From positions 1 to 63,432 of the forward strand of contig JAGGUZ010000015.1 of the NCBI GenBank assembly GCA_021158225.1: 63,432 nt of DNA, in the 5' to 3' direction. Both the position numbers and the translations under genes were made by a program. Below are positions 14,004-38,093 of this stretch, piece by piece. Source of the DNA: a bacterium (lineage in GTDB: Bacteria; Patescibacteriota; Gracilibacteria; UBA1369; PNNO01). The notes under the pieces are model-generated. The model was not told the origin of the DNA. It worked only from the letters and a program-made list of their open reading frames with translations, and ran no database searches. The stretch's first letter is position 1; the number at the start of each line of letters is the position of its first letter.

Positions 14004-15035
14004 TTATTTGCATTGTTTGTCGGCCGATTGCTTAGAGCATTGCTTAAGGCTATCAAGTGGTTTGTAGGAGTCCTCGATTGTTTTATTTAAATCAGATAAA
14101 AGCTTTTCGTATGTGTTTGCAAGGGAGTCTCCCCCATATTTGTAAAGAGCCTTGTATTTTGCCGTTAGAGTTGCTTTTTCAAGAGCAGCTTTATGTTCTT
14201 GGTCAGCTTTGCTACTTGCAAGTTGCAATGTATCCAAACTTGGACTATCTCCTGTTTTTTTTGCGAGATCGTTGAACAGTTCTTGAGTGTTTTTAATTCG
14301 ACTTACAAATTCTATTCCACTCTCTTTTAAATTGTTTATAAAATTTTTCATTCCGGTTGCCGGAAGGTTTATTGCATTATCAAAGTCTTCTTTAAGGCTT
14401 TTTGCGTCGGCTCCCATGCCTTTTATTGTATTAACAAGATGATCCCATTTTTTAATCAACATTTGTATGCTTGCATCTTGGCATTTTGAATAGCTGGAAG
14501 CTAATCTGCTTTTATATTTGGATTTATATTTATCGAATATTTTTTTAAATTCTTCTTCCGTAAATAATAATTTTTTATCAACATATTTTTCTTTTAATTG
14601 GCTATATACTTTTTCCTCCGGGATTAATCTACCGTTTTTATCTGCGAATGAAACAAAGTTTCTTAAATAATCCAGTTCTATTTCAAGTTTGTAATATTCT
14701 ATTTTCAAAAGGTTAACTTGATCGTCTTTACATCCGAGAATCGCCACTCTAAGCTGAGAACGAGTTGTATCAATTCGTCTAAGTATTGAATCTATATCCA
14801 TGTAATAACATGTATTTCGATTATATCTTATAAAAATATCTTTCCAATATTCATTAAAGTCGCTAATTGATATTGTTGAAGAAATAAAGGTATCCCATTC
14901 CGTAATACATGATGTGTTAATGCTCAAATCTGAGCCCGTTTGAGCTTTCGTCGAAAGTGGGGTTGCCATGAGTTGTAATATCAAAACAGCTACTAATAAG
15001 CTTATTCTCCCTCTTTGTATCGGTTTATTTTTCAT
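14004..15035 (-). CDS. secreted helical protein (343 aa) with C-terminal Cys pair; last gene of the giant-protein operon
   Basis: Sec-type signal peptide MKNKPIQRGRISLLVAVLILQLMATPLSTKAQ. Lys/Glu/Tyr-rich helical composition. Ends ...LKQCSKQSADKQCK. Only a 4-nt gap to the upstream gene. Confidence 0.7.
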   Translation of the reverse strand: MKNKPIQRGRISLLVAVLILQLMATPLSTKAQTGSDLSINTSCITEWDTFISSTISISDFNEYWKDIFIRYNRNTCYYMDIDSILRRIDTTRSQLRVAILGCKDDQVNLLKIEYYKLEIELDYLRNFVSFADKNGRLIPEEKVYSQLKEKYVDKKLLFTEEEFKKIFDKYKSKYKSRLASSYSKCQDASIQMLIKKWDHLVNTIKGMGADAKSLKEDFDNAINLPATGMKNFINNLKESGIEFVSRIKNTQELFNDLAKKTGDSPSLDTLQLASSKADQEHKAALEKATLTAKYKALYKYGGDSLANTYEKLLSDLNKTIEDSYKPLDSLKQCSKQSADKQCK

Positions 15036-15039
15036 GATT

Positions 15040-16578
15040 TTAAGAACAGTATGGTTTAGTTGACAAATCCGTACATGGTATTTTCATTTTGTTTAGTTGT
15101 TTTAGTATTGTGTTAAAAGCTTGATTCATAGCTTCAAGCTCTCCTGATGTCATTTGATATTGAGTATTGTTAAGCTCTGTTGTTGTTTCTTCTTTTGATT
15201 CAGTTACATTTTTTTCTACTTTCTTTCGAATGATTTGGGTTCTGTCTTGCGCTTTAACCGTTATCTCATCGATAGTTGCATTATTGGATGCACCTTGTAG
15301 AGTTTCTTTTATGCTTCTGTTTTCTACGGTTGCTTGTGGTGGTGGATTTTTTGTTTTATAAAAATATGCATTAAATGCTTCTTTTAATTTGTTCCAATCT
15401 TTTTCTATATTAAGTTTTATATATTTATCTTGATTCGATTGTCTTGGCGGAGCAACTGCGACTGTTATTATATTCATGTTCACAGGTAAATTTGTGAATG
15501 ACGATTTGCATTTTGGAACTTCAAACAGATTTCCTGACAATTTATTAGCCGATAAAGGCTTGCTTAGAAGCTTATCGAGGGCCTTATTTATATTTTGCAC
15601 ATGACATGCTATACAGTTGTCGGATTTTCCATATGCCTTAGCGCTTTTTATATCGAAGGAGATGTCTATGCAGTAAAAAGCTCCATCCGGACATAAATAT
15701 TTACTTGGCCATTCATCACTTTCGGCTTTTGGAAACTCAGGTTCATCCTTATTTCCATCCTCATTATTGTTATTGCCAGATTTATCATCTCCGTTTTGAT
15801 TCCGCTGTTGACTTTCATCAAAATCGGATATGGCATTATCAAGCACTGACTGCTTTGAAAAACAGTATAATGGTGAAAATTCAACACTGCTTGTTTGATT
15901 ATTCGTTTGAGATCCGGGGGTTTCATTTGTATTGTTGTTTTTGTCAAACAGGTCGTCTGTAAAGGCTTCATCTTCTTTATCGGAAAAATCAAAATCCGGT
16001 GTAGTAAATTTTCCACCAAACTCGCTTGTGGAAGACTCATTGAATAGAATTACTTCTATAACGGTAAGATCGCGCAGAATATCGAACTCTGAATTTGATG
16101 TATCTCCGTCCATGAATATTTCACTTGGTTTTGTTTGAAGTTCAAGTTCGCTACGTAGATTTTCCGTTTCCAATTCATTATTGTAATCGTTTAGGATCTT
16201 TGTATATTGAAACAGGATCTTACTAATATCAGCGTTTTCCTGTTTTTTTATCAATTGGCTCAGATCTCCGTTTACAACTATTGATCTTATTTGATCTTCA
16301 GTCATTGAATATTTCTTTGATATTGTTTTTGTAGCTCTATCTTTTGGGTCATTATTTATTTCTTTATATAATTTTAAATACATATCTTGATTTATGGCTG
16401 TTTTTGGCTTGTTTTTAACTTCATCCAATAATTCTTCCACAACAGTTTTATCTGTTGTTTCAGAAGGCTTTGTTTTCGCTTTATTTGTTTTAGCGCTTGC
16501 GATTTGCATGCTCGCAAGTATTAACAATGTTATGGCCGATATGTAAACAAGTTGTTTTCTCATGGTGTTTAGGTGCAT
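15040..16578 (-). CDS. secreted protein (512 aa) with Asn/Asp-rich low-complexity centre and C-terminal Cys pair
   Basis: Signal peptide (MHLNT)MRKQLVYISAITLLILASMQIASA, with an alternative start at ATG 16563. Cys cluster YLCPDGAFYCIDISF...NCIACHV. Ends ...LNKMKIPCTDLSTKPYCS. Confidence 0.7.
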   Translation of the reverse strand: MHLNTMRKQLVYISAITLLILASMQIASAKTNKAKTKPSETTDKTVVEELLDEVKNKPKTAINQDMYLKLYKEINNDPKDRATKTISKKYSMTEDQIRSIVVNGDLSQLIKKQENADISKILFQYTKILNDYNNELETENLRSELELQTKPSEIFMDGDTSNSEFDILRDLTVIEVILFNESSTSEFGGKFTTPDFDFSDKEDEAFTDDLFDKNNNTNETPGSQTNNQTSSVEFSPLYCFSKQSVLDNAISDFDESQQRNQNGDDKSGNNNNEDGNKDEPEFPKAESDEWPSKYLCPDGAFYCIDISFDIKSAKAYGKSDNCIACHVQNINKALDKLLSKPLSANKLSGNLFEVPKCKSSFTNLPVNMNIITVAVAPPRQSNQDKYIKLNIEKDWNKLKEAFNAYFYKTKNPPPQATVENRSIKETLQGASNNATIDEITVKAQDRTQIIRKKVEKNVTESKEETTTELNNTQYQMTSGELEAMNQAFNTILKQLNKMKIPCTDLSTKPYCS

Positions 16579-17243
16579 GCGGTTGTAGTTGCGTCAATGA
16601 ATTTCCCGGGTAATTTTTCCACTTCCTTTCTAAATTCACTGAATTTTTTGTTGTATTTTGTTAGGCTTTTTATAATTTTTTCGTATTGAAGATGCATTTT
16701 GTATTTAATAAGAAGCTCGTTATATGTCTTGATAGATATATCTAAAGCTTTTTTTGATCTGTCCAGTTCGTTTGTGATTTCATTATGTTGCTCGGCCATT
16801 GTTAACGAGGCTTGTCCAAGCGTGATGTTTTCATCTTGTATAGTGATGTATGTTCCTCGTTTGTTTAATGCTATGGAATATTGGTCGTATTCTTTTGCTA
16901 CGGCCATTGCTAAGCAATAAGTGCTGTAGTTGTTTTCATTGCATTCATCGTTTTTCGGAGGTTTTGTTGTGCCTCCGCCTTTTTCACCCTTTTTTAAAAG
17001 GGTGAGTTTTTCATTAAAAATATCATTTACTCTTTTTTGATAAGACTTCTCTACCTCTCGAAGGCTTAGGTTCTCTTTGTCGTACGGATTTACTGCGGAA
17101 CTTGCATATAGCATATTTGCTGAGAGAATAGCTGATATTGCAATAATCAGAATAACAATGGAGCTTTGGATTGTTTTTTGTTTTATGTGTTTCATAAACA
17201 TTGTTTTACAAAACAAGGAACACGATTTTTTAATGAATTCCAT
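16569..17243 (-). CDS. secreted helical protein (about 208-224 aa)
   Basis: The signal peptide reads best from MKHIKQKTIQSSIVILIIAISAILSA. That ATG (17195) forms an ATGA overlap with the upstream stop codon. The maximal ORF reaches 17243. Ends ...KLPGKFIDATTTACT. Confidence 0.65.
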   Translation of the reverse strand: MEFIKKSCSLFCKTMFMKHIKQKTIQSSIVILIIAISAILSANMLYASSAVNPYDKENLSLREVEKSYQKRVNDIFNEKLTLLKKGEKGGGTTKPPKNDECNENNYSTYCLAMAVAKEYDQYSIALNKRGTYITIQDENITLGQASLTMAEQHNEITNELDRSKKALDISIKTYNELLIKYKMHLQYEKIIKSLTKYNKKFSEFRKEVEKLPGKFIDATTTACT

Positions 17244-17734
17244 TTTCCTAGCATTTGAGTAATATTAAGAACCAATTGATCCAGTTTTTTATTTATTTGT
17301 TGTAGTTTTGTCATAAAAGCTGTTGTAGTTTTAATGTTGGATGTTTGTTTATAATATGTTTTTAAGAGCGCTTGCATTGTTTGGATCTCGTCATTCATTT
17401 GTTTTGAGCATGCAAGTGTATCTTTTGTCTCGGAATAAAGTTTAAAGCCTTCTTGAGGCAGATATGATTCGTATTTTGTCCTAAGGTCTTTTTTATATAA
17501 TGTAAAACGTTTAAGGGCTAGATCCAGCAGTGAAGTGTTTGTTTTCTTACTTTGAAAGTGTTGATTTAAATAAGTTCTAAATTCTTCACTTTTTTTATCT
17601 ATGTAAGGTTTCATTTCCTCGACACATTTAATATCTTTCTCTTTGGAATTGCTATTTTGCGCATTTGTAATATTTACATGCGGAAATGTTAACAATAAAA
17701 ACATGAATATTACGATGCTGATTTTATTCTTCAT
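17192..17734 (-). CDS. secreted helical protein (180 aa) with C-terminal Cys pair
   Basis: Signal peptide MKNKISIVIFMFLLLTFPHVNITNAQ. The start overlaps the giant gene stop by 11 nt. Ends ...LGKWNSLKNRVPCFVKQCL. Confidence 0.7.
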   Translation of the reverse strand: MKNKISIVIFMFLLLTFPHVNITNAQNSNSKEKDIKCVEEMKPYIDKKSEEFRTYLNQHFQSKKTNTSLLDLALKRFTLYKKDLRTKYESYLPQEGFKLYSETKDTLACSKQMNDEIQTMQALLKTYYKQTSNIKTTTAFMTKLQQINKKLDQLVLNITQMLGKWNSLKNRVPCFVKQCL

Positions 17735-20700
17735 ATTTCAGTTGGTTACTTTTTGCAAATATTGTAGATAAATCTTTTGTTCCAATTACGGCGAAGAAAT
17801 CATCTCCCGGAATAAGATCTGCTTTGTGGTCGAGAGCTGATATGCATGGACAAGAATTACATGTTGGCGTAACTATATATACCCCTTCTCCCAAGCCACT
17901 TCTTGGGTCTTTGTCTATGTTAGACAAGTCATCAGACTGGTTAAGAGGATCTGTCCCGCGTGATACTTCAAGCCCATCCATAATACCACCGTTGTCGGTG
18001 TCTGGGTCGTATGGGTCTGTCTTATATATTTCAATTTCGTCTTTTGTGGTCAGACCATCGTTATCGTCATCAAATGGATCGTCTGCAGGGAAGTTTACAG
18101 GATTTGTTCCATGTTCAACCTCGTCTTTATCATTTGTTCCGCCATGATCCGTATCGGGGTCAAATGGGTTTGTGCCAAATCTATATTCGTCAATATTGAT
18201 TAGACCTTCATGATCAGGATCTTTTGTTGCATCCGATGGGGCAAATGGGTCTAAGCCATTTTTAAGTTCCCAGACACTTGGCATACCATCATTATCATCA
18301 TCAATTAAGTAGCAGTCAAAGGCTTTTAATACTCTATCGGCAATTGCAACAAATTCAGCTCGAGTTATTTTTACATTTGGATTTCCAGCTTCTTCCGGAG
18401 TAAGTATATAAGTTTTATTTACTGCACTTTTTTTAAGTAGAACAGGAGATAGATCTTGTGCAACGGCAATATATGGAGCGTACCATGGATCATCATCTGT
18501 TTTCGTTATACCTCGTAGGCTTATAATTTTTTGTTTTTCCAAAGCTTCAAGTACTATTTTTACAGCTTCGGCACGTGATATTGAGGTATCCGGTTTAAAT
18601 GGTAAAAGCCCTGTAGCTCTATCTATTTCTCCGATATAACCGGATATAAAGCCTTGATATACTGCTTCTTTAATAATTGAGTAATAATAATCTTCTTTTG
18701 AATATTTAATATCCGAAAATAAACTTGGTTCTTTGTAGCTCTCCGGTCTTGGGATTATACAGAGCATTTTCAAGATAATATCAGTAAAATCTTTACGAGA
18801 AATAAATCCATTCGGATTAAAGTTTATTACTCCATCTTTAAATTCTCCTCGTAAAATATTTTTTTGCGAAAGATTAATTATTGAATTGTAATATGGGTCA
18901 TCTTTGTTTACATCATTAAATGGCGAAGTTGCTTTTTTTGTAGGATCTTTACCGAAGGCAATTTCTTGACTATCCGTAAATCCGTCACCATCGGAATCGT
19001 TGTTTAACGGATTTGTCTTCAATCTGTATTCCTCCAAGTTGGAAAGTCCGTCTTTATCACTATCTTTAAGTGCATCTCCCGGATTTCGTGCATTAAATCC
19101 GTACATAAATTCAAAATAATCCGGCATTCCATCGTTGTCTTGGTCGGACATCGTGTTCGCTTCAGGGGGGAGACCCAAAGCATCTCTATCCGTAATAGTA
19201 GCCGAGTTTCCATTATTAATTGCAATATAAGTTTGAGCTATAACTTTTCCATCATATAAAATTTCTATAACAAGAGGATCGTTTTCTTGAGATGGTTTTA
19301 GTTGTAAATCAAGATTGTCTACAAAAAAGTATATGTTCCCGCCGGCATCGACAATTGCTATTCTTTTGTCTACTGACGAGTCTTTTATCTCTGAGGCTCC
19401 GGTAAAATTAGGATCCGATGCCGGCAAATTGTCTATCGTAAATTGATCATTTGTGTCTTTGTCTTTAATATGTACTCCTTCAAACGATACAACCGAATCT
19501 GTTGTATATTCGGTATCCTGATTATCGATTACAACGTCCGTATTTTGATCCGGAATTAATAAAATAGTTAGCAAAATTGTTTCGGTGGATTTTTCTTTTA
19601 CCACAAGCCTTGTTGGCATTGTAGGAGGAACTGCTTCAAGTACATCCACATAATATCTATTGTCAATAATGGTAATTCGTCCGGTTTTGTCGTCTATTTC
19701 GGCAACGGTATCTCCATCGGAATTTTTTAAAATCAAAGTGTCTTCAAATTTAAGATTCTTAACTTTAAACAAACCTTCTTTATCTGTAGAGTACATGCCG
19801 TTTTTATCTGCTTCGTCTGTAATTAATTGTTTACTAAGACCTTCTCTTTCACGAATTAATGCAATTGGGATATCTTTGGCAGGAGGATTAATTGAACCAG
19901 TTATAGTTTTTTCATGACTCGAAGCTTCATCAAGAGTGATGGTTGGAATGACTATATTTATTGTTATTACTTGTTTGCCGTCATTTAGAGATTCATCAAT
20001 AGCGTTAAGTACAACAATTTTTTTGCCGATTTCTTCAAAAGGTCCAAGTTCAAATATAGGATTTGTTTTATCGCTATTTGTAATGTCTCGGTCGTTCATA
20101 GGCTCTCCATCGTTATTCGAGTCCGTTTCCGGATCATTATCTAAGTAGTATTCGGTAATATTTCCTTCAGTATCAAATGATGAAGATGCATCAAGTCTCA
20201 AAGTTTGATAAAGAATTACTGTTTTTTCAGAAGGTCCGGCTTGCGCATACGGAGGTTGTTTGTCCGAACATAGTTGAGGTGCAAGTAGCTCGGTTTCCGA
20301 AGGATTACTTCTGTTCCCATTTTCATCAAACGTATATATTTGAGCGTAATAATTCCCTTCATCCGTATCCAATGAAACAAACGGATTGTTTGGGTCTATT
20401 AATTCTTTCATAAGCAATGTGTCTTGAGGACCAAGATATGTTTGTGCCCCATTCATAAACTTAACGGATGTATATCCACTTGTCATTTCGATGTAATCTC
20501 CAAAATTAACGAGCATTCCTTCTTCAAGTTTTTCCTCTGTTTTTTCTTCGGATTTTGGGTCAAAAATTTCAACTTTTCCGCTTGCAACTTGCAATGTCAA
20601 ATCATCAAAATAATTTTCCGAAATTGGCATTAATACATTTTTACTAAGAGCCAAAGTTTGTTTGTTCTTATCCGGCGGAGTAATTACAATAATACTGTCT

Positions 20701-29700: not shown

Positions 29701-32700
29701 ATTTTGAATACAGCTTTTCCGTTAATAAGATTTATATGATCGGATCCATATATCTCCGCTTTTGGACTGTCGCTGTCGGAAATAACAAAATATACTTGAG
29801 TGTAAGAATCAAAATAGTTTTGTTTGTTTGCGTCATCCATTGCGCTAACAATAATTTCATAAGGTTTTATGCTCCCAGTTAGAATCATATTCGTATCGTC
29901 TTGAAATTTTATTGATAGATTAACCGTATTTTCGGCTCCGTCTGGGATCCCATTCCCATCCGAGTCCGATAACGCTTTTTTAATGTCATCTTCGCTAAGG
30001 CCCTCAATAAAGGATGCTATATCGTTATTTCCGTCGGAGCATGCCGGTTGAAAACTTAATCCCTTCGGAAGTTTTGCCAGATCTCCAAGATATTTAACCA
30101 AATAAGCTATCCATGCAGGCAGAATAATAGCTTCGGATTCAGCTTTACTCCCAGAATCTTCTTTTTCTTCTCCTTCAAGATTTCCTTTTGGATTTAACCA
30201 GTCCGGATCGTTATCTTTAACATCCGGATTTTTATCTACGGAAAAATTAATTTTGTCGGCTGTTCCATCGGCAGTAAAGTAAAAATACTCATAACCGTTT
30301 TTTGTTTCGCCGGTATAAGCATCTTTTTGCTTATCCAAGTAAGTCTTAAATACATATAGATGTTTCTTATCGATAGATGCATTCTTCCACCAAACGGTGT
30401 CGTCAACCATTTTATGTGTGGTTTTATCAAGTACTTGATTCAAATACTTGGTTTCATCGGATTGTATTGTTCCCGTAAGTTTACCTGTGATGTTGCTTGC
30501 ATTTGCTCCAGGTAAATTAATAAGCTCATCTTCCATATCTTTTAATTTCTTCTCATAATCGTCAGCATCTTTGGCTTCAAAAATATTCGGATAAATTATT
30601 TTGTGATAAACACCGTTTGTATCTACGAACGATACATATCTTGGATCGTCAATTGGCAATGTGTCTATTGTACCTTTTTTAAGTTGATGTCGGATTGTCT
30701 CCGGAGTTGGTTCTTTGTGGAACTCTAAACTGTTTATTCCTTGATTAAATACTGTTGGAGTTTTTGTGATATAAAGATCTATTTTTTTGATATTTGAAAA
30801 TGGCGGTTTTTGGATAATAAAATGATTTTTCCTGTTCCCTAAAATTTTGAGGCCTATTTCATATGGATCATCAGAATTTATTTTATAGTTTAAATTGTAT
30901 TCATCCGGTTCGTCAATTTCCCCATCATTGTCGTTATCGACTCCGTCGAATCCTCCATAGATATCAAAGATGTCCTTAAATGATATAGACGGATTTGCTA
31001 AAAGTAATATGTCTTCATTCGGTCTATACTTAGGTCCCGGCAATGGTATTGCGGCTTTTTGCTCTTCCGTATTTGTAGAATTAAGTGCCAATATATAATT
31101 TGCCACTTCCGCAAGATAATTGTTAAAGCGAGATTTTTCTCTAAAATCGTAACATCCTCCGATTCCAAGTGCGTATTTCGATATGTCTTTTTTTGCCATT
31201 GAGCCGTTCTCGTCGTATATCCATTTTGATGCTATATCGGGGAAACATCGGTCAGGAGTACCAATTTTATCTCCATCCGTAGTAATCATGTTGCCACTAT
31301 AACAGTACCCATATTTATCAGCATTTGCTTGATCATCTTTTGTATCGAAATCGTATAGTCTGTTTAATTCGCTGTCGCCTCTAAAAATTGTACATTCTTG
31401 CGCACTGTCTAAAGTTGTGGCCGGCTTCCCATAATAGTAAACCGTATTGTATGTCCCCAAATTAGGATCGTTATAACTTTTTACATTATTATTTACGAAA
31501 TCCCAAGAAGTTAAATTTGCTGTTGAATTATCGTCAAAAGTAACTTGACCGCTGAGTTTTACGCTATTTATTATTGGAATTGTTCCTTGCAGTGGAGCAA
31601 CTATTGCATCAATTTTTCTTTCTATCGCATCGTTTACCATTCTTAAGTATTCTTGTGTGTGTAAATCTTTTGTAGCAATTAAAGAAACAATCGAGTCGTA
31701 GGAATCGTATCTTCCCGTGCCCCTTATAAGGTCATTTGCTTTTTGGAGATAATTTTTATATAACTCATTAAATTTTGTTGTGTAGGAAAGAACTATATTT
31801 CTACTATAAGCATCCGGAAGTCCTTTAAACATATCGGTATTTACAAGACTTTCAAGATTTTTGCCTCCATCTTCATCAATAAATCCATCTCCGTCGTTAT
31901 CGATACCATCTTGTAAATCTTCATCTATATGTCCATCCATATCATCATCTATTCCATCTCCTTCCGGAGAGGGTGTACCAATAATTTTTTTAAGTAATTC
32001 TTTCGAGAATCTTTTGTATGCAAGATCTTCAAGAAATTTTGTATGGTTTTCATATCTTTTACCAAGCGTTTTGTCATACATTTCTTGTTCCCAAATTAAA
32101 TCTGCGTAAAGAAGTTTTTTATCGTGAATTGTAAAGTCACTATTCCCAGTATGAAAAAGATGATTTTTATCGAAATAATAAGCATAGCTTTCCGGTGTGT
32201 CTAAATCTTCGGTTGGAGCTTTTATTACTCCGTGCCACGCTTCAATCTTAGGATTCAGGCTGTCTGAATTATATTCAAAGTTACTTGTTGCTTTATTATA
32301 TACATAAACCGGATGTATGAAATCGATATATGGAAGTATGCTTGTAAACTTAAAACCGTTTTTACTTACAACAGGAAGTGGTACATCTCCTATAATAATT
32401 ATGCCATCAAGCCTGCTTTTTCCATTAATGCTTTTATCTCCTTTAAAATATAGAGTTTCAAGAGCCTCCGCTATTTTATTAGGCCGTTGGCTTTTATTAA
32501 CTTTGATTATTACAGAACGAGTAAAAGGATCTGAAAGCTGAGTATCTTTTGCAAATCTGTAAATTCGTTCTCTTAAAGTTTGTTCAGGCAGATCTGCAGG
32601 GTACTTTGTTTTTAATCCTTCATAAGGATTGTTGTCGTTAATTAAAGATTCATCAACAAGAATTGCAATAATAGATGTTACTTTTACGGGGTCGTTTTTT

Positions 32701-32825: not shown

Positions 32826-32848
32826 GCAGTCCTTTTATTTGTCTATAT

Positions 32849-32859
32849 ATTTTAGCACA
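32849..32859 (-). promoter_or_regulatory. candidate extended -10 promoter (TGcTAAAAT) for the giant-protein operon
   Basis: The minus strand reads TGTGCTAAAAT about 24 nt upstream of the ATG at 32825, downstream of the pilin terminator. No convincing -35. Confidence 0.3.
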
Positions 32860-32983
32860 AATAAGCCAAAAAAGACAGATCAAGAGTCCGTATATATAAA
32901 ATAATATATTGCCAAATTTAGCAAATATTTAATGGCTTTTTATGGCGCAAATTAATCAATTCCGTTTTAGATATAATTTTTTA

Positions 32984-33028
32984 CATAAAAAAGTGGATTC
33001 TTCGTTCATGCAAGCGAAGAATCCACTT
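32984..33028 (-). terminator. rho-independent terminator after the pilin gene
   Basis: Perfect 14-bp stem AAGUGGAUUCUUCG/CGAAGAAUCCACUU with a 10-nt loop, followed by UUUUUUAU on the minus strand. It starts 16 nt after the pilin stop codon. Confidence 0.85.
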
Positions 33029-33043
33029 TAATAAATCTACGAA

Positions 33044-33568
33044 TTATTGAACAAGAATATAATAATCATTACCACTACCCGGATCTGGAGTTGTTGTGGC
33101 GCTTACATCCTTAGGGTTTACTTTAGTATTGTTATTGCCTGCTATTTCCATAACGGTTCCTATAACATATTCAGCGCTATCTACCGATCCTATATATTTA
33201 TAGTAATATTCTCCGTTCTTTACACAATCTCCCGGATCGGTTAATCCGGTTGCTATAGTTCGGCCGGCTCCCGATGGGTCTTTAGGAGCAATTCCACCGG
33301 AAAAATACGCTGTAAGTCCTGTATCAAATATTTTTCCTGTTCCGATGCATGTGCCATTTTTAGCATCAGTGCTGTTTGGATAATGTCCGTTATCGGAATT
33401 ATAAGCTTCCAATGCAGCTACAATTGAATTGATGTTTCCAAGTCTTGCGGCATCTCGACCACGCGCCGGTGCGTTAAGAATTGATGGCAGAAGTGCCGCA
33501 GAAAGCACACCGATGATTGCAATTACAATAAGTAATTCAATCAGAGTGAAACCTTTTTTGTTTCTCAT
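33044..33568 (-). CDS. type IV pilin (prepilin-type N-terminal cleavage/methylation domain)
   Basis: Class III signal MRNKKG|FTLIELLIVIAIIGVLSAALLP with Glu at +5. A C-terminal globular part carries one Cys pair (GTCIGTG...PGDCVKNG). Confidence 0.9.
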   Translation of the reverse strand: MRNKKGFTLIELLIVIAIIGVLSAALLPSILNAPARGRDAARLGNINSIVAALEAYNSDNGHYPNSTDAKNGTCIGTGKIFDTGLTAYFSGGIAPKDPSGAGRTIATGLTDPGDCVKNGEYYYKYIGSVDSAEYVIGTVMEIAGNNNTKVNPKDVSATTTPDPGSGNDYYILVQ

Positions 33569-33644
33569 GTGGAAAAGAGTTAAGAGATTAGATAATATTA
33601 ACCATTTATTAATTATACACTAAACATAACGAATATACCAGTTT

Positions 33645-34901
33645 TTACATATTACTGGCTACATCTGCCAATGACATTATAGGTAGCATAATAGCTGCTA
33701 CAAGTCCTCCTACGGCAAGTCCGACAAATACCATAATGATTGGTTCAATTATTTTTGTAAGACCTTTTACGGATTCATCAACTTGTTCATCATAAAAATC
33801 CGAAACTCGTTTACTAATGGTTTCTAATTGCGCTGTTTCCTCTCCGATTGCAATCATGTTTACGAACATAATAGGAAAGTAACTACTGTTTCTAAGTGTT
33901 TCTGCTAAAGGAATACCTCCTCTTATATCATCTCCGGCGAGTTTGATTTTTCGTTTGTATACCTCGTTATTCATTGCATTTGAAATAATGTTGAGGGACT
34001 GATTAATTGTTACCCCGGATCCCAGCAAATTTCCAAGAGTTCTTGCAAATTGAGCGAGTGTGGATTTCCGTATCAGCCCGCCGAAAATAGGTAAATGCAA
34101 AAGAAAAATATGCCATTGATATCGTCCATTTTTTGTTCGTTTCCAAAGAGTAAAGACTATTCCGAAAATTACGATTGCTCCAATAATTATATATGATTTT
34201 TCTCTCATAAAATTGCTCATTACTATAACAACCTTTGTTATTGTGGGCAACTTTGTCCCGGTTTGAATGAATAATTTGGTGATATTCGGAATAACCATTG
34301 TCATCATCAAAAACATAACCAAGAATAAAATTGCCAAAACAACTGTTGGATAAGTAAGAGCTCCTTTTACTTTAGATAAAGTTTGAGCGTTTTTCTCCGT
34401 TTGTTTGGCTAAATCTCGTAAAATATTGTTCAAATGTCCGGAAACTTCACCACTACGTATCATTCCTATTTCCGATTCGTTGAACACTTTTGGATGTTGT
34501 TCCATTGAACCGGATAAACTTTCCCCTTCTTCTATTTTTAGTGCCATATCCAATATAATCTTTGAAAATTTCGGATTTTTCTTATTTTGTTCGGATAGTG
34601 TTTGAAGTGACTTAATAATTGGGATTCCGGCATCTACCATTACCGCAAGAAGCCTAAAAAAAACGGCTTTCTCTTGCGTTTTAACTTTGTTTATGCTAAT
34701 AATCGCATTGTTCAGTTTTGCATATGTGTCAAAGAGAAAATTACCCGTATTTACAGTATTAGCTCCTTTTCTTAATTTAACTTTTTTTAAACTCTGTCCT
34801 ATGGATAGGACAATTCTTTCATCTTTGGAAAGTTTCGATTTTCCCTTTAGCTGAAAGGTTTCTCCAGTATCTTGTTGTGCAAAATCTTTAGCTTGTTTCA
34901 T
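33645..34901 (-). CDS. pilC: type IV pilus platform protein PilC (GspF family)
   Basis: 418 aa with duplicated GspF-type cytoplasmic domains separated by TM helices. Motifs include LSEQNKKNPKFSKIILDM...EGESLS and RGGIPLAETL...FPIMFVNMIAIGEETAQLE. Confidence 0.88.
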   Translation of the reverse strand: MKQAKDFAQQDTGETFQLKGKSKLSKDERIVLSIGQSLKKVKLRKGANTVNTGNFLFDTYAKLNNAIISINKVKTQEKAVFFRLLAVMVDAGIPIIKSLQTLSEQNKKNPKFSKIILDMALKIEEGESLSGSMEQHPKVFNESEIGMIRSGEVSGHLNNILRDLAKQTEKNAQTLSKVKGALTYPTVVLAILFLVMFLMMTMVIPNITKLFIQTGTKLPTITKVVIVMSNFMREKSYIIIGAIVIFGIVFTLWKRTKNGRYQWHIFLLHLPIFGGLIRKSTLAQFARTLGNLLGSGVTINQSLNIISNAMNNEVYKRKIKLAGDDIRGGIPLAETLRNSSYFPIMFVNMIAIGEETAQLETISKRVSDFYDEQVDESVKGLTKIIEPIIMVFVGLAVGGLVAAIMLPIMSLADVASNM

Positions 34902-34915
34902 AAAATATTAAAAAA

Positions 34916-36163
34916 TTAATCTTCCATTTTTCTTGACACTCTATATACCTCTTCTATTGTCGTAGTTCCTTTAAGAGCTTGAATAATACCTGCTTGTTCA
35001 AGTGTTACCATTCCTGATTGCATGGCTATATCTTCAATTTCAAGCGTATCGGCTCGTCTTAGAATAGCTTTACGCAGTTTATTATTCATTTTCATCACTT
35101 CATAAAGTCCTACTCTTCCTTTATAGCCCGTATTGTCGCATTGATCGCATCCTTTCCCTTTATAAAATTTCATGCCTTCTATGAGTGCAGGGTCTATATC
35201 TTCTCCGGGATGAATTTTTTTTGCTACGGTTTTTATATGTTCAACAAGTTCCGGATCAACATGGTCTTCAACTTTACAGTGTTCACATATTCTGCGTACC
35301 AAACGTTGAGCAATAACGCATTCGATTGTGGAAGCCATTAAGAATGGTTGTACGCCCATATTATCTATACGTGTAAGTGTCTCAACGGCACTGTTTGTGT
35401 GAATGGTTGAAAGTACAAGATGTCCTGTAAGCGAAGCTTCAATGGCAGTATCAACGGTTTCTTTATCACGAATCTCACCTACCATTATAATGTCTGGATC
35501 TTGACGAAGACCGGTACGCATACCGAATGCGAAAGTATAATTGATATCCGGATGTACCTGACTTTGATTTAATCCATCTACTTGAATTTCAACGGGATCT
35601 TCAATTGTCATTATATTTACATCTATTTTATTCAAACGATTAAGACATGAGTAAAGAGTTGTTGTTTTCCCGGAACCGGTAGGTCCTGTGTTTAAAATAA
35701 TTCCGTTTGGAGCTTTAATTGCGGATTCAATTGCTTTAAGACTGTTGCCTTCAAGTCCGAGTGCGGGTAAATCAGGGATTTTTCTTGATTTATCTTGAAT
35801 ACGCATTACAATCTTTTCCCCGTTTACTGTTGGCAGAGTGGAAATACGAAGATCCATTTCTCTGCCGTCTCTTGTTGTTACCGTGCTTCTTCCATCTTGG
35901 GGGATGCGTTGTTCGTCAATCTTTAAATTCGACATAATTTTAATTCTTGAAACAACCGCTGGATGAATATTGGTTGGGTATTCAACAATCTTTCGACATA
36001 CGCCGTCAATTCTGTATCTTATGCGTACTGTATTTTCCAGTGGCTCTATATGAATATCACTGGAGCGCAAATCAAGTGCATAGCTAATTGTGTTAAGCAC
36101 TAATTGCGGAATATTTCCTCCTAAGATCGCATTTTGTAATAATTGTAATTTTTCTGCCGGCAT
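34916..36163 (-). CDS. pilB: type IV pilus assembly ATPase PilB/GspE family (short form)
   Basis: Walker A GPTGSGKTTTLYS, Asp box, Walker B IIMVGEIRD, His box LVLSTIHTNSA, and the PilB/GspE-type tetracysteine CEHC...CDQC. The long N-terminal GSPII domain is absent. Confidence 0.9.
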   Translation of the reverse strand: MPAEKLQLLQNAILGGNIPQLVLNTISYALDLRSSDIHIEPLENTVRIRYRIDGVCRKIVEYPTNIHPAVVSRIKIMSNLKIDEQRIPQDGRSTVTTRDGREMDLRISTLPTVNGEKIVMRIQDKSRKIPDLPALGLEGNSLKAIESAIKAPNGIILNTGPTGSGKTTTLYSCLNRLNKIDVNIMTIEDPVEIQVDGLNQSQVHPDINYTFAFGMRTGLRQDPDIIMVGEIRDKETVDTAIEASLTGHLVLSTIHTNSAVETLTRIDNMGVQPFLMASTIECVIAQRLVRRICEHCKVEDHVDPELVEHIKTVAKKIHPGEDIDPALIEGMKFYKGKGCDQCDNTGYKGRVGLYEVMKMNNKLRKAILRRADTLEIEDIAMQSGMVTLEQAGIIQALKGTTTIEEVYRVSRKMED

Positions 36164-36179
36164 AAATTTATAAAGTTGA

Positions 36180-36815
36180 TTAACTTTTGATCTTAAAATA
36201 TGAATTCATTGCAACATTAAAATTTATCTCGTCTTTTCCGCTTGTGTTTTTTTGCGTTCCTTCAGGCGCTACAAAATTTATAACAATGGATTTAATATTT
36301 AAAAGTCTTGTTTTGTCGGTTAAAGTTCCGCTGTTTTCTATGTATTCCAAAAATTTTATAAAATTATCGTGTGAACTGTGAATTGTCATTGTAAATGGCA
36401 AAATCATTAAACTTTCATCTTCAGATTTAACTGGCTTTAAATACTGAAGATTACTGATTATAAAAGGATCTTTTGTTCTGTTTAAGTTGTTGGAAAATGA
36501 TTCTAAAGTTCTTGTTAAAAGTGTGTGTTTCTCTGTTTCCGGGAAAACATAATCGACTTCATCGGCAATTGCTTTCATAAGATCTTCATTTTCGGTTTTG
36601 GTTTTATTTACTTCATCATCAAGGCGTTTATCTGTTGTTGTAAGTGCGCCGTGCAGATTTTTAAGGGATGCAGTTTCATTTTTTATCTCTATGTAAGTTG
36701 TAATATTCGTGTATAAGTAATATGCAAGAAAAACTGCAACGATTATTGCAAGTCCGCTAAATATTTTTAATTGGAGTCCTTTATTGTTTTTTATCGATTT
36801 TTTTCCTTTTTTCAT
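36180..36815 (-). CDS. PilO-like bitopic pilus alignment protein
   Basis: Basic N-terminus, one TM (IFSGLAIIVAVFLAYYLY) and a coiled-coil. A C-terminal segment ILPFTMTIHSSHDNFIKFLEYIENSG...RLLNIKSIVINF follows the PilO pattern. It sits directly upstream of pilB. Confidence 0.5.
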   Translation of the reverse strand: MKKGKKSIKNNKGLQLKIFSGLAIIVAVFLAYYLYTNITTYIEIKNETASLKNLHGALTTTDKRLDDEVNKTKTENEDLMKAIADEVDYVFPETEKHTLLTRTLESFSNNLNRTKDPFIISNLQYLKPVKSEDESLMILPFTMTIHSSHDNFIKFLEYIENSGTLTDKTRLLNIKSIVINFVAPEGTQKNTSGKDEINFNVAMNSYFKIKS

Positions 36816-36823
36816 GGTTGTTT

Positions 36824-38026
36824 TTAAGTTATGGCATAGTTGTCTTCAAGCGAAAGCTCTATGCGGAAAGGGGAAGTGTAACCTGTTTTTTCCGATCCCG
36901 ATTTTGGATAAGTTCGATTGTCAACATCTTTAAATAAGGAAGAATCTTCCAGTGCATCTATTAAATTCACGATTAAAGTAAAAGTGGTTCCATCATCGCG
37001 TTTTGCGTGACCTGTAAGGATAATTCTGTTTGTCTCGGCATCAAAATCAAAATTTGAATACTTAATTCCTCCGAGTTCATCAAAGAATCCAGTATTATAC
37101 AATGTATCAATATTTTTTGTTACCCGTTCGATTTCTTTAATTATGATCGACCATTGAATTCTTTTTAATTTCAGGTCGCTTATCACACTGAAATCATTTT
37201 TTAGATTAGCAAGAACAGTCTGTGTAAGAGCAAAAAGCTTTGTGTCGTCTCGAGGGAGATCATTCTTTATATCGCTGGTGTTATATTGAAAAATTGTTCC
37301 AAGTTTGTTGTTTTCTATAAGATGCAAAGCGGTTGTGTAGTTTTTTATTTCAGCATTTACAGAAGGACTTCTTGTCTCTTTTTTAAGTTGATTGATTTCA
37401 TTTCTAAATACATTTTTTAGTTGTACTTTAAAAGTATTTTCGGGTATAGTTCCGGCTACAATAGGTTCTTTCCATTTTGTTAAAGCATTCTCATATGTAA
37501 GTATGATGTCATCTTGAACAGTTTTTTTGGTTTTCAAATTTGATGTGGATTTTCGTATCTTTGCATATCCATCTGACAAATAACTTAGTTTCTGCAGATA
37601 GTAGCTCATCAGCAAATAATTTTTTTGATTGATTGATGTTTGAGTCGTAATGACTGAATTTTTAATATTATTGAGTTGTTGTATGGTATTTGGGCCTCTT
37701 ACACTTGAGAGTAGGTCAAATTTCGGATTAAGTTCCGAATAGAAAAAGGTAACTGCCAAAAGTAAAGCTCCAACAAGCGATCCAAGGACTATTTTTACTA
37801 TCTTTAGATTTCTTGCTCTTGGATCAAATGAGCCAATGAGGTTCTTTTCAAGTTCCGGCACCGAACCGAGTATGTTTTCTTTACTTGATTTGTCTTCTTT
37901 TGCAAACACACCCGAGAGGACTTTACTATCATCATCCTCTTTTTTTTTGTCCTGCTTATCGAAAATATTAGTATATAAATTTTCTTCTTTTTTTGCAGGT
38001 TTTTTCTTGATATCAAAAAGTGGCAT
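36824..38026 (-). CDS. bitopic membrane protein, PilN-like C-terminus (putative pilus alignment component)
   Basis: ~75-aa Lys/Asp-rich cytoplasmic N-terminus, one TM (IVKIVLGSLVGALLLAVTFFY) and a ~300-aa external domain ending IILTGHAKRDDGTTFTLIVNLIDALEDSSLFKDVD. First gene of the pilus unit. Confidence 0.35.
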   Translation of the reverse strand: MPLFDIKKKPAKKEENLYTNIFDKQDKKKEDDDSKVLSGVFAKEDKSSKENILGSVPELEKNLIGSFDPRARNLKIVKIVLGSLVGALLLAVTFFYSELNPKFDLLSSVRGPNTIQQLNNIKNSVITTQTSINQKNYLLMSYYLQKLSYLSDGYAKIRKSTSNLKTKKTVQDDIILTYENALTKWKEPIVAGTIPENTFKVQLKNVFRNEINQLKKETRSPSVNAEIKNYTTALHLIENNKLGTIFQYNTSDIKNDLPRDDTKLFALTQTVLANLKNDFSVISDLKLKRIQWSIIIKEIERVTKNIDTLYNTGFFDELGGIKYSNFDFDAETNRIILTGHAKRDDGTTFTLIVNLIDALEDSSLFKDVDNRTYPKSGSEKTGYTSPFRIELSLEDNYAIT

Positions 38027-38064
38027 TTGTTTTGTTTTTTATTTTGCTTTTTTTATTTCCTTTA

Positions 38065-38093
38065 ATTTTATCAAAAATTGTGTGAAAAGTCAA
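38065..38093 (-). promoter_or_regulatory. sigma70-type promoter of the pilus unit (TTGACT-17 nt-TAAAAT with TGn extension)
   Basis: The minus strand reads TTGACTtttcacacaatttttgaTAAAAT. The -10 ends 38 nt upstream of ATG 38026, just downstream of the rplL terminator. Confidence 0.55.

What the first reader, a model, noticed from the sequence alone, without database searches (positions are those of the whole stretch)
14004..38093. Candidate cell-contact island: an insulated type IV pilus unit directly followed by the giant adhesin operon
All ten minus-strand genes between 38093 and 14004 encode envelope or secreted products, arranged as two back-to-back transcription units.
- Unit 1 (38093 to 32984) has a near-consensus promoter, PilN-like, PilO-like, PilB, PilC, one pilin, and a perfect 14-bp terminator.
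- Unit 2 (32825 to 14004) is the giant protein plus four secreted proteins. Its gene junctions are an 11-nt overlap, an ATGA overlap, a 10-nt overlap or 5-nt gap, and a 4-nt gap.

The island is wedged between rplJL and a uvrA/HTH region. It therefore interrupts otherwise housekeeping context. Physical linkage of a pilus machine to a giant SLH-anchored multi-adhesin and a private set of small secreted partners is not a described system. It could be a dedicated attachment or host-interaction apparatus.
Basis: partly seen in the sequence, partly recalled or inferred. Interest (0 to 1): 0.75.

Follow-up and report, generated by a model that had tools for sequence, protein, structure and literature searches.

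The report
Conserved pilus–giant surface protein gene block
This is a vertically inherited 24-kb block in uncultured Peregrinibacteria (a type IV pilus unit, then a 5,033-residue wall-anchored protein and four unknown secreted proteins) that keeps the same gene order in every one of about 40 distant relatives where the sequence reaches far enough to show it, which makes it the best candidate for the cell-contact machinery of this group, although a working link between pilus and giant protein is not proven.

Summary
Ten minus-strand genes form two units. Unit 1 is a PilN-like gene, a PilO-like gene, PilB, PilC and one pilin, followed by a perfect 15-bp terminator. Unit 2 is a 5,033-aa SLH/Ig/FG-GAP/TSP3 protein plus four tightly packed secreted proteins.

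- All 8 related loci fetched through the giant's N-terminus show the same pilus genes directly upstream of the giant gene, and 7 further loci show pilin(s) there.
- All 29 non-redundant metagenomic loci that extend past the giant's stop codon carry homologues of the four small genes in the same order (GC 34-53%, 20-35% identity).
- The giant protein is collinear over its whole length. Its central region has 406 matches among clusters of proteins at 50% identity, nearly all 3,500-6,000 aa.

The block is not an inserted island. GC matches the flanks, and rplJL and HTH/uvrA stay adjacent in most relatives. Synteny alone therefore cannot prove that pilus and giant operon work together. The terminator and a separate promoter between them recur in relatives.

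The four small families and the giant's best-conserved regions match no Pfam family or solved structure. Looser precedents for the linkage exist (Omnitrophota giant genes beside T2SS/T4P-like loci, tapirins, PilY1), so it is a new variant of a known kind.

The parts
38065..38093 (-). Sigma-70-like promoter of the pilus unit (TTGACT, 17 nt, TG-n-TAAAAT)
   Evidence: (10 of 12 matches, TG present). It lies between the rplL terminator hairpin and the p400 start codon. This is a consensus match only.
36824..38026 (-). p400: PilN-like bitopic protein (cytoplasmic N-terminus, TM 76-94, long coiled coil, C-terminal alpha/beta domain)
   Evidence: No direct Pfam, NCBIfam or PDB-profile hit. 3 of 8 orthologues hit Pfam PilN, best E=6.9e-5. 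Topology. Conserved in this position in 8 of 8 related loci.
36180..36815 (-). p211: PilO-like bitopic protein (TM 16-34, coiled coil, C-terminal alpha/beta domain)
   Evidence: 4 of 8 orthologues hit Pfam PilO, best E=1.7e-5. Conserved position in 8 of 8 related loci.
34916..36163 (-). PilB-type assembly ATPase (short form, 415 aa; CxxC...CxxC cysteines present)
   Evidence: Pfam T2SSE E=5e-128. Sequence. Orthologues are 65-74% identical.
33645..34901 (-). PilC platform protein
   Evidence: Pfam T2SSF, two stretches, E=4e-57. Orthologues are 42-49% identical.
33044..33568 (-). Type IV pilin with class III leader (MRNKKG|FTLIE)
   Evidence: Pfam N_methyl E=1e-10. NCBIfam GspG/PilA-type N-terminal matches. 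Sequence.
32990..33029 (-). Intrinsic terminator after the pilin gene (15-bp perfect stem, 10-nt loop, T-run)
   Evidence: RNAfold gives -19.8 kcal/mol. An equivalent hairpin plus T-run lies 12-28 nt after the last pilin gene in 9 of 14 relatives (10 of 15 with the window).
32849..32857 (-). Extended -10 element (TGCTAAAAT), 23 nt upstream of the giant gene's ATG; putative own promoter of unit 2
   Evidence: Read. A similar TGnTAnnnT element occurs upstream of the giant gene in 7 of 15 relatives (8 of 16 with the window). This is inference, not a measured start site.
17724..32825 (-). Giant surface protein, 5,033 aa. Order along the protein: signal peptide; conserved N-terminal region of unknown fold; two SLH triplets (~1346-1530 and ~4635-4850); Ig-like Big_1/GH2_C5 domains; FG-GAP; DUF11; TSP3 Ca-binding repeats; Cys/Pro-rich central region 2920-3480; conserved 55-aa C-terminal domain
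   Evidence: Pfam. Collinear orthologues with HSPs up to 4,111 aa at ~30% identity. The central region has 406 hits among clusters at 50% identity, nearly all 3,500-6,000 aa. C-terminal domain conserved in 30 of 30.
17192..17734 (-). g180: secreted helical protein with conserved cysteines; first of the four partner genes; overlaps the giant gene by 11 nt
   Evidence: Homologue directly after the giant gene in 28 of 29 metagenomic loci by BLAST; the 29th has a 290-aa ORF in its place. Conserved Cys37/109/179. Possible paralogue of g224 (hhalign 87%). No Pfam, NCBIfam or PDB-profile match at a meaningful score.
16569..17195 (-). g224: secreted protein (true start probably Met17 at 17195, giving an ATGA overlap with g180); conserved C-x8-C and a C-terminal FIDATTTxC motif
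   Evidence: No Pfam, NCBIfam or PDB-profile match at a meaningful score.
15040..16578 (-). g512: secreted protein with conserved acidic motif (EIFxDGDxSNSxFDxLxDLxxIE), a conserved CxxC and 8 cysteines invariant among its closer relatives
   Evidence: 42 homologues in the protein database, all unnamed, no Pfam. No credible PDB-profile match. AF2 model poor, mostly helical (pLDDT 57.6).
14004..15035 (-). g343: secreted helical protein with six conserved cysteines; last gene of the operon
   Evidence: No Pfam or PDB match.
13973..13993 (-). Terminator-like hairpin 10 nt after the g343 stop codon (8-bp stem, weak T-run)
   Evidence: Weak; consensus match only.
13430..13720 (+). HTH_17 small DNA-binding protein, convergent neighbour retained next to the operon in most relatives. 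Its membership of the system is unproven.
   Evidence: Pfam HTH_17 E=1e-15. HTH_17 and/or uvrA present after the fourth small gene in 13 of 18 loci with enough sequence; both present in L068 and L070.

Best explanation
[quoted passage not shown] Peribacteria, Peregrinibacteria or 'Gracilibacteria'). It has two transcription units.

Unit 1 builds the inner-membrane core of a type IV pilus. It encodes PilN-like and PilO-like alignment proteins, the PilB assembly ATPase, the PilC platform and a major pilin. It ends in a strong terminator, as is common after major pilin genes (general knowledge, not tested here).

Unit 2 has its own promoter and makes, in fixed proportion through overlapping or near-touching genes, five Sec-exported proteins. 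One is a 5,033-residue protein tied to the cell wall at two points by SLH triplets. It displays Ig-like, FG-GAP, DUF11 and Ca-binding TSP3 modules. The other four are cysteine-containing, mostly helical secreted proteins that most likely assemble with it.

The proposed working model is a contact apparatus. The pilus reaches and pulls. The giant protein with its four partners forms the wall-anchored contact or adhesion structure.

Shown: the gene identities, the two-unit signal architecture, and the lineage-wide conservation of content and order.

Inferred: that the four small proteins bind the giant protein, that the complex mediates cell contact, and that it cooperates with this pilus.
For: - Domain assignments.
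- Signals. The terminator after the last pilin gene is found in 10 of 15 intergenic regions examined, window included. An extended -10 before the giant gene is found in 8 of 16, window included.
- Pilus genes upstream of the giant gene: all 8 related genome loci have p400-p211-PilB-PilC-pilin(s)-giant on one strand. 8 of 9 metagenomic loci with a visible upstream side have pilin or PilC there; one of these 8 is the same contig as a genome locus, so 7 are additional.
- Small genes downstream: 29 of 29 non-redundant metagenomic loci that pass the giant's stop codon carry the small genes in the same order. 25 carry all four. L068 and L070 do too.
- Breadth: GC 34-53%. Small proteins 20-35% identical, PilB ~70%, uvrA 72-80%.
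- The giant protein is collinear along its whole length and belongs to a family with 348 matches at E<=1e-10 among clusters at 50% identity, almost all 3,500-6,000 aa.
- Conserved cysteines in all four small families. A DsbA-like gene lies in the same window.
- The pilus-giant adjacency survives where a flank differs: L010 has a different upstream side, and 5 of 18 loci lack HTH/uvrA downstream.
- Genes inserted between PilC and the giant gene include extra pilins and SLH proteins; others are of unknown function.
- Context from papers: type IV pili drive host attachment in cultured CPR bacteria (titles and abstracts listed). Peribacteria genomes are noted for large exported proteins thought to act in attachment (PMC4736985). 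Peregrinibacteria are among the bacterial phyla most enriched in proteins longer than 5,000 aa, with no function assigned (PMC11573180).
Against: - No experimental or expression data were available.
- The conserved terminator and separate promoter show that the two units can be expressed independently.
- rplJL and HTH_17-uvrA-PrsW, which cannot be part of a contact apparatus, are retained next to the block in most relatives (15 of 20 loci for HTH/uvrA). Conserved adjacency in this slowly rearranging lineage is therefore weak evidence of function.
- The giant protein's strict collinearity over 5,000 residues fits a conserved structural envelope component better than a fast-evolving host-specific adhesin.
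- No PilM, PilD, PilT or minor pilins are in the window.
- Both structure predictions failed (pLDDT 57.6 and 37.9). No fold-level clue to function exists for the small proteins or for the giant protein's best-conserved regions.
Confidence: 0.5

Rival explanations
1. Frozen synteny without functional coupling. The pilus unit and the giant operon are two independent surface systems. For example, the pilus could serve DNA uptake or twitching, and the giant protein with its partners could be an S-layer-associated envelope scaffold. On this reading they sit side by side only because this part of the chromosome rarely rearranges in the lineage.
For: - A strong terminator and a separate promoter between the units, both recurring in relatives.
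- The clearly unrelated neighbours HTH_17-uvrA-PrsW and rplJL-miaA-recJ are also retained, even where g512 is only 25% identical.
- Unrelated genes of unknown function sit between the pilin and the giant gene in L012 and L048.
Against: - Pilus-giant adjacency was seen in every locus where it could be judged: 15 clear cases and one ambiguous (L035). The uvrA flank is lost in 5 of 18, and the rplJL flank is replaced in L010.
- The identifiable insertions into the gap are pilins or SLH proteins; the remaining inserted ORFs are of unknown function.
- Linkage of large adhesins or giant genes to T4P/T2SS-like loci recurs in unrelated phyla.
Confidence: 0.33
2. Direct mechanical dependence. Either the giant protein is a client of the pilus machine, pushed or threaded through wall and S-layer by a pseudopilus in T2SS fashion. 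Or it is a PilY1-like pilus-associated adhesin. Or the giant protein and its four partners form the wall and S-layer conduit through which the pilus exits in a cell that has no secretin.
For: - The giant gene follows the pilin gene or genes in 15 of the 16 loci where the upstream side can be judged; the 16th (L035) is ambiguous, and in L012 and L048 ORFs of unknown function lie between them.
- No secretin is present, as expected for a cell without an outer membrane (general knowledge).
- In Omnitrophota, giant genes are preceded by a conserved T2SS/T4P-like secretion locus.
- The FG-GAP beta-propeller region is among the best-conserved parts, and PilY1 is also a propeller protein with a Sec signal (general knowledge, not tested here).
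Against: - The giant protein has a Sec-type signal, not a class III leader.
- It carries two SLH triplets, which argues for fixation to the wall rather than travel on a pilus tip.
- No PilY1/PilC-adhesin domain was detected.
- No minor pilins lie next to it in the window.
- T2SS-like export is not established in monoderm bacteria (general knowledge).
Confidence: 0.12
3. A horizontally acquired or mobile 'island' inserted between housekeeping genes.
For: Only its position between rplJL and uvrA.
Against: - GC is 0.33-0.37 throughout, the same as the flanks.
- There are no integrase, transposase or tRNA borders.
- There are no direct-repeat borders among the tandem repeats found.
- The same block with the same flanks occurs in many distant relatives.
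- There are no homologues on plasmids or phages.
Confidence: 0.02

Closest known systems
Type IV pilus loci of Candidate Phyla Radiation bacteria (for example the Saccharibacteria pili that drive episymbiosis)
   Same: PilB, PilC, a pilin with a class III leader, PilN/PilO-like proteins and no secretin. The organism is an ultrasmall, probably host-dependent bacterium.
   Different: Here the pilus unit is fixed next to a 5,033-aa wall-anchored protein and four orphan secreted proteins. No PilM, PilT or PilD lies in the window. No experimental link to attachment exists for Peregrinibacteria.
Omnitrophota giant-gene loci preceded by a T2SS/T4P-like secretion system (West-Roberts et al., bioRxiv 10.1101/2023.11.21.568195)
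   Same: A giant surface protein gene directly downstream of GspE/GspF-type genes and small genes with class III signal peptides. Conserved small genes follow the giant gene. The arrangement is conserved across a phylum.
   Different: - The Omnitrophota locus is described with GspD (the T2SS secretin, by general knowledge) and more than 10 secretion subunits.
- Its downstream genes are PilZ homologues, solute-binding proteins and hydrolases.
- Here there is no secretin. The downstream genes are four secreted cysteine-containing proteins with no known domain, and the giant protein is anchored by SLH domains.
- Homology between the two sets of giant proteins was not tested.
[quoted passage not shown]
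   Same: Surface adhesins with no known domain, encoded proximate to a T4P locus. The host genus has SLH-domain surface proteins (PMC3723904).
   Different: By recollection, tapirins are single proteins of moderate size that bind cellulose. No giant protein, no four-gene partner set and no sequence relationship were detected or tested.
PilY1/PilC pilus-associated adhesins of Gram-negative T4P (recalled from general knowledge)
   Same: A large Sec-exported protein with a beta-propeller and calcium-binding sites, encoded beside pilin genes.
   Different: PilY1 is about 1,000-1,200 aa, lies inside a minor-pilin operon and has a specific C-terminal domain. That domain was not detected here. The giant protein here is wall-anchored by SLH domains.
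SLH-anchored S-layer-associated giant proteins of monoderm bacteria
   Same: SLH triplets, Ig-like repeats and extracellular display.
   Different: There are two separated SLH triplets. The order of 5,000 residues is strictly conserved across a phylum-level lineage. The four partner genes and the pilus neighbour are fixed.

Membership tests
Type IV pilus / type IV filament machinery | PilB/GspE-family assembly ATPase | tested here: met
   Pfam T2SSE E=5e-128, covering 18-408 of 415 aa. CxxC...CxxC cysteines are visible in the sequence.
Type IV pilus / type IV filament machinery | PilC/GspF polytopic platform protein | tested here: met
   Pfam T2SSF, two stretches, E=4e-57.
Type IV pilus / type IV filament machinery | Pilin with class III signal peptide (G|F-x-x-x-E) and hydrophobic N-terminal helix | tested here: met
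   Pfam N_methyl E=1e-10. TIGR02532 E=3e-9. Sequence MRNKKGFTLIELLIVIAIIG.
Type IV pilus / type IV filament machinery | PilN and PilO bitopic alignment proteins | tested here: inconclusive
   The window proteins themselves give no hit. Orthologues hit PilN in 3 of 8 (6.9e-5) and PilO in 4 of 8 (1.7e-5), with E-values that were not compared with the Pfam gathering scores. Topology and position fit.
Type IV pilus / type IV filament machinery | PilM, prepilin peptidase PilD, retraction ATPase PilT, minor pilins | tested here: not met
   None is among the ORFs of at least 120 aa that were scanned against Pfam, together with two shorter ORFs at the uvrA flank. ORFs under 120 aa elsewhere, where minor pilins could lie, were not scanned. 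These genes may be elsewhere in the genome, which cannot be tested with a 63-kb window.
SLH-anchored cell-wall proteins | S-layer homology domains | tested here: met
   Pfam SLH E=1.9e-14 in the first half (two stretches, ~1346-1530) and E=6e-8 in the second half (~4635-4680). The duplicated module 1100-1660 / 4360-4970 is seen in cross-matches of orthologues.
SLH-anchored cell-wall proteins | Pyruvylated secondary cell-wall polymer as ligand (CsaB) | not tested
   No csaB search was made. It cannot be judged from a 63-kb window.
Omnitrophota-type giant gene plus secretion-system locus | Giant gene preceded by GspE/GspF and class III signal peptide genes, conserved across the phylum | tested here: met
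   compared with the description read. This is met as an analogy of layout only.
Omnitrophota-type giant gene plus secretion-system locus | Secretin GspD, more than 10 secretion subunits, downstream PilZ genes | tested here: not met
   No secretin or PilZ domain occurs in any gene of the block. Only five pilus genes are present.
PilY1/PilC-type pilus adhesin | PilY1 C-terminal propeller domain (Pfam Neisseria_PilC) and location in a minor-pilin operon | tested here: not met
   That domain is not among the Pfam or NCBIfam hits of the giant protein. No minor pilins are adjacent in the window.
c-type cytochrome (considered for g512 because of CIACH) | Conserved CxxCH haem-binding motif | tested here: not met
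   CxxC is conserved in 93% of sequences. The following residue is His in 16 of 27 aligned sequences, Glu in 9 and Met or Ala in 2; L067 also lacks the cysteines.
Mobile genomic island | Atypical composition, integrase or tRNA borders, patchy distribution | tested here: not met

The most novel reading that the evidence does not exclude
The giant protein and its four disulfide-bonded partners form a previously unrecognised envelope organelle of Peregrinibacteria that is mechanically integrated with the adjacent type IV pilus. One form of this reading is a wall- and S-layer-spanning collar or conduit that replaces the secretin complex in a cell without an outer membrane. Another is a contact-dependent docking or feeding structure that the pilus pulls onto the host. 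On this reading the five unit-2 genes would define a new multi-protein surface machine built from families with no known relatives.
Probability: 0.12. Interest if true: 0.85.

Novelty: new variant of a known kind. Interest (0 to 1): 0.6.

Why it matters
Peregrinibacteria are uncultured, have reduced genomes and are presumed to live on other cells. How they attach is unknown. A survey of huge proteins lists this phylum among the bacterial phyla most enriched in proteins longer than 5,000 aa, with no function assigned (PMC11573180).

This analysis shows that at least one such giant protein is a single, collinear, lineage-wide orthologue. Its position is fixed between a type IV pilus unit and four orphan secreted proteins. 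That turns a statistical oddity into a defined 10-gene target. It yields five protein families of unknown fold with enough homologues for co-evolution and complex modelling. It also gives a clear place to look in tomograms and metatranscriptomes.

There is a general caution as well. In this lineage even uvrA and rplJL stay adjacent to the block, so conserved synteny is not sufficient evidence of functional coupling.

Tried and rejected
1. Homologue search with the almost complete giant protein failed: too long, then timed out. A search with the central region alone found nothing, probably because Pro/Leu low-complexity words filled the candidate list. The exhaustive representative search later found 406 relatives.
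2. AlphaFold2 of g512 with 42 homologues gave pLDDT 57.6. AlphaFold2 of the giant N-terminus (aa 36-900) with 5 sequences gave pLDDT 37.9. Both are too poor for fold comparison, so no fold search was run.
3. Pfam, NCBIfam and PDB-profile searches of the four small families, the giant N-terminus and the central region gave only noise.
4. g512 as a c-type cytochrome (CIACH motif) is rejected because the His is not conserved.
5. The small proteins as fragments or paralogues of the giant's helical central part are rejected: hhalign probabilities are below 1%. Only g180 and g224 look related to each other (87%).
6. p400 and p211 as detectable paralogues of each other is not supported (hhalign 6%).
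7. The palindrome TTGCTAAATTTGGCAA upstream of the giant promoter as a conserved operator is rejected: it is absent from all 15 relatives examined.
8. A mobile island is rejected.
9. The reverse test could not be done. It would ask whether related pilus units exist without a giant gene, and whether these genomes have a second T4P locus.

Full report
**1. What is in the sequence**

Between 14004 and 38093 there are ten consecutive minus-strand genes.

Unit 1 runs in this order:
- A 400-aa bitopic protein at 36824-38026.
- A 211-aa bitopic protein at 36180-36815.
- PilB (T2SSE, E=5e-128).
- PilC (T2SSF, E=4e-57).
- A pilin with a textbook class III leader, MRNKKG|FTLIE (N_methyl, E=1e-10).

The two bitopic proteins give no direct family hit. 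When their orthologues from relatives are scanned, 3 of 8 hit Pfam PilN (best 6.9e-5) and 4 of 8 hit PilO (best 1.7e-5). Their topology also fits: one TM helix, a coiled coil and a C-terminal alpha/beta domain.

Signals around unit 1:
- rplL has its own hairpin terminator (read from the sequence).
- A TTGACT-17-TG-n-TAAAAT promoter follows at 38093-38065. It is one of six 10-of-12 matches in that scan, and the only one of the six with the upstream TG.
- After the pilin gene there is a perfect 15-bp stem with a 10-nt loop and a T-run at 32990-33029. The consensus scanner missed it only because of its loop limit.

Unit 2 starts with an extended -10 element (TGCTAAAAT, 32857-32849), 23 nt before the ATG of a 5,033-aa ORF. 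Pfam finds these domains in the giant protein:
- Two groups of SLH domains (~1346-1530 and ~4635-4850).
- Big_1/Invasin_D3 and three GH2_C5 Ig-like domains (1900-2100).
- FG-GAP (~2470-2530).
- DUF11 (~2716-2802).
- TSP3 calcium-binding repeats.

- An 11-nt overlap.
- An ATGA overlap, if g224 starts at Met17, which the family alignment supports.
- A 10-nt overlap or 5-nt gap.
- A 4-nt gap.

Each of the five unit-2 products has a single N-terminal signal-like hydrophobic segment. A weak hairpin follows the last gene.

**2. Where it comes from**

Identical proteins occur on a 126-kb ENA scaffold and on JGI and Logan contigs. Relatives found through the giant protein are MAGs labelled Candidatus Peribacteria, Peregrinibacteria or 'Gracilibacteria'. 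NCBI places Peribacteria in the phylum Peregrinibacteriota. The window is 33-38% GC throughout, with no shift at the borders of the block. The rest of the window is housekeeping genes, plus three more SLH proteins, Lgt and a DsbA-like protein.

**3. The comparative test**

The N-terminal 1,300 residues of the giant protein had only four clear database relatives. The two whose contigs could be fetched showed p400-like, p211-like, PilB, PilC and pilin genes immediately upstream.

A profile of that region pulled six more loci from species-representative genomes. My ORF and BLASTP annotation showed the same order in all eight loci. Identities to the window were:
- PilB 65-74%.
- PilC 42-49%.
- Pilin 32-52%.
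- p400 and p211 25-35%.
- Giant protein ~30%.

Extra genes are sometimes inserted between PilC and the giant gene. Some are additional pilins or SLH proteins; others have no recognisable function.

A profile of the giant protein's central region (aa 2920-3480) then fetched 35 metagenomic loci with GC from 34 to 53%. After removing duplicates, the counts are:
- 29 of 29 loci that continue past the giant's stop codon carry genes of about 200, 215-335, 540-640 and 340-450 codons, tightly packed.
- These are homologous in that order to g180, g224, g512 and g343, at 20-35% identity.
- 25 loci show all four. The others are cut by contig ends.

Two further contigs reached through g512 homologues show the same arrangement. 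One is a 1.37-Mb contig; the other has g512 at only 25% identity.

On the upstream side, 8 of 9 metagenomic loci with enough sequence have pilin or PilC. The ninth has only the non-conserved C-terminal part of a truncated gene.

**4. Nature of the giant protein**

It is not a shuffled repeat adhesin. Orthologues align collinearly over up to 4,111 residues at ~30% identity. Conservation is spread along the whole length, with these peaks:
- Residues 100-400.
- Residues 2400-2600 (FG-GAP).
- Residues 2900-3500.
- Residues 4200-4500.

The central region carries invariant cysteines and proline-rich motifs:
- C-GG-GCIPMPxNxAFLAPG.
- LADLPDLYxLYPD.
- SCDxCxSxRFSL...IPxPPIIPFPKWPDI.
- LPDLPPLPLPxLPDIPPPPKIP.

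The last ~55 residues (GiYiv..eC..CPC.S...AD..GD..f..Is..ifskSNe) are conserved in all 30 C-termini examined.

An exhaustive HMMER scan of 1.84 billion cluster representatives with the central region found 406 proteins: 348 at E<=1e-10 and 233 at E<=1e-30. Almost all are 3,500-6,000 aa, with the region at a similar relative position. The only names attached to sampled members are generic: 'S-layer homology domain-containing' and 'FG-GAP-like repeat-containing'.

Neither the N-terminal nor the central region matches Pfam or any solved structure by profile. The AlphaFold2 model of the N-terminus was unusable (pLDDT 37.9).

**5. The four small proteins**

All four families have conserved cysteines:
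- g180: C37, C109, C179.
- g224: C101, C110, C223.
- g512: eight cysteines invariant among its closer relatives, including a CxxC.
- g343: six.

All four are predicted to be largely helical. g180 and g224 may be paralogues (hhalign 87% over their full length). No other pair is related, and none resembles part of the giant protein.

None matches Pfam or NCBIfam at a meaningful score, and none has a credible PDB-profile match. The 42 database homologues of g512 are all unnamed. Its AF2 model is poor (pLDDT 57.6).

The CIACH sequence in g512 is not a haem motif, because the His is replaced by Glu in a third of the family.

Overlapping or near-touching reading frames, together with invariant co-occurrence with the giant gene, make a stoichiometric complex with the giant protein the most economical reading. 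This is inference.

**6. Is it an island, and does adjacency mean function?**

The block is not an insertion:
- Composition is uniform.
- There are no mobility genes.
- There are no plasmid or phage homologues.
- The flanks are conserved too. rplJ-rplL (with miaA and recJ) precede the pilus unit in L009 and L012, as in the window.
- HTH_17 and/or uvrA follow the fourth small gene in 13 of 18 loci with enough sequence. HTH_17, uvrA and PrsW follow it in both L068 and L070.

This cuts both ways. It shows vertical inheritance across a deep lineage. It also shows that clearly unrelated genes stay adjacent here, so synteny alone cannot prove that the pilus and the giant operon cooperate.

Points in favour of a specific link:
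- The pilus-giant adjacency held in every judgeable case, while the uvrA flank is lost in 5 of 18 loci and the rplJL flank is replaced in L010.
- Several of the genes inserted between PilC and the giant gene are pilins or SLH proteins.
- Similar linkages recur in unrelated bacteria (see section 7).

Points against:
- A strong hairpin plus T-run follows the last pilin gene in 10 of 15 intergenic regions examined, window included.
- A TGnTAnnnT element precedes the giant gene in 8 of 16, window included.
- The two-unit design is therefore itself conserved and allows independent expression.

**7. Literature**

- The first Peribacteria genomes were noted for large exported proteins and type IV pili. 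No linkage was described (PMC4736985).
- A survey of proteins longer than 5,000 aa lists Peregrinibacteria among the bacterial phyla most enriched in them, with no function assigned (PMC11573180). The family described here probably contributes to that enrichment; this is inference.
- Vampirococcus and Gracilibacteria papers mention giant or adhesion-type surface proteins and pili but not this module.
- The closest precedent for the layout is in Omnitrophota. [quoted passage not shown]
- Tapirin adhesins lie next to the T4P locus in Caldicellulosiruptor (10.1101/359786).
- PilY1 is a further analogue, recalled from general knowledge.

The claim 'not a described system' is therefore true for this particular module, as far as the searchable library shows. 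It is not true for the general idea.

**8. Verdict**

It is a ~24-kb, ten-gene surface block. Wherever the sequence allows a check, its content and order hold across the ~40 related loci fetched here. The giant family has 348 matches at E<=1e-10 among clusters at 50% identity.

My estimates:
- The best-supported function is a cell-contact apparatus, made of a pilus plus a wall-anchored giant complex (about 0.5).
- The main rival is independent systems held together by frozen synteny (about 0.33).
- A direct mechanical dependence between pilus and giant complex is possible but unsupported (about 0.12).

It is a new variant of a known kind. Interest is 0.6.

Noticed in passing
window 38670-38790 (inside rplJ, 38643-39413, minus strand): A 33-nt tandem repeat (3.2-3.7 copies, 92-93% matches) lies in the 3' part of the L10 gene. 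It gives an 11-residue repeat in a C-terminal extension. The longest ORF is 256 aa, whereas gene callers on identical contigs give 219-230 aa.
   Followed up: no
window 13430-13720 (+): A 96-aa HTH_17 (excisionase/MerR-like) gene lies convergent to the last gene of the giant operon. HTH_17 and/or uvrA are retained there in 13 of 18 relatives with enough sequence; both are present in L068 and L070. It could be a local regulator or just another frozen neighbour.
   Followed up: partly
window 32909-32924: Near-perfect palindrome TTGCTAAATTTGGCAA, about 60 nt upstream of the giant gene's extended -10 element. Only two TTGC-N8-GCAA sites exist in the whole window. It is not present in the equivalent spacer of 15 relatives.
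   Followed up: yes
window 46471-47823 (-), 57776-58747 (+), 58838-60148 (+): Three further SLH-domain proteins. ORFs similar to two of them (46471-47823 and 58838-60148) are inserted between PilC and the pilins, or lie just upstream of the pilins, in L007, L008/L053 and L065. This suggests a shared surface-protein pool around the pilus locus.
   Followed up: partly
window 47823-48581 (-) and 48606-49580 (-): Lgt (prolipoprotein diacylglyceryl transferase) and a 324-aa DsbA/thioredoxin-like protein sit side by side. The latter fits the many conserved cysteines in the secreted proteins of the block.
   Followed up: no
window 342-3992 (+) and 4076-6187 (+): Two large ORFs (1,216 and 703 aa) with no Pfam match at E<=0.001. 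A 1,227-aa gene occupies the corresponding position beyond thrS in L068, so at least the first is probably a conserved unknown protein.
   Followed up: no
window 42177-43706 (-): A 509-aa ORF without any Pfam match, lying between two DHH/DHHA1 (RecJ-like) genes (40514-42172 and 43864-45372).
   Followed up: no
window 17724-17890 (last ~55 codons of the giant gene): The extreme C-terminus of the giant protein (GVYIVTPTCNSCPCISALDHKADLIPGDDFFAVIG...SNQ) is conserved in all 30 orthologues examined, with a CxxCPC motif. It looks like a dedicated C-terminal domain, possibly an assembly or sorting tag.
   Followed up: partly
window 23572-24297 (+) and 22477-22779 (+): Antisense ORFs inside the giant gene (241 and 100 aa) find 'homologues' on the antisense strand of the giant gene in relatives (L007, L010). 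This is most simply a by-product of conservation of the sense strand, not evidence of genes.
   Followed up: no
L045 2-5836 and L046 3-16630: In two relatives the giant gene is split into two ORFs (a 420-nt gap in L045, abutting frames in L046). These are possible frameshifts, assembly errors or real pseudogenisation.
   Followed up: no
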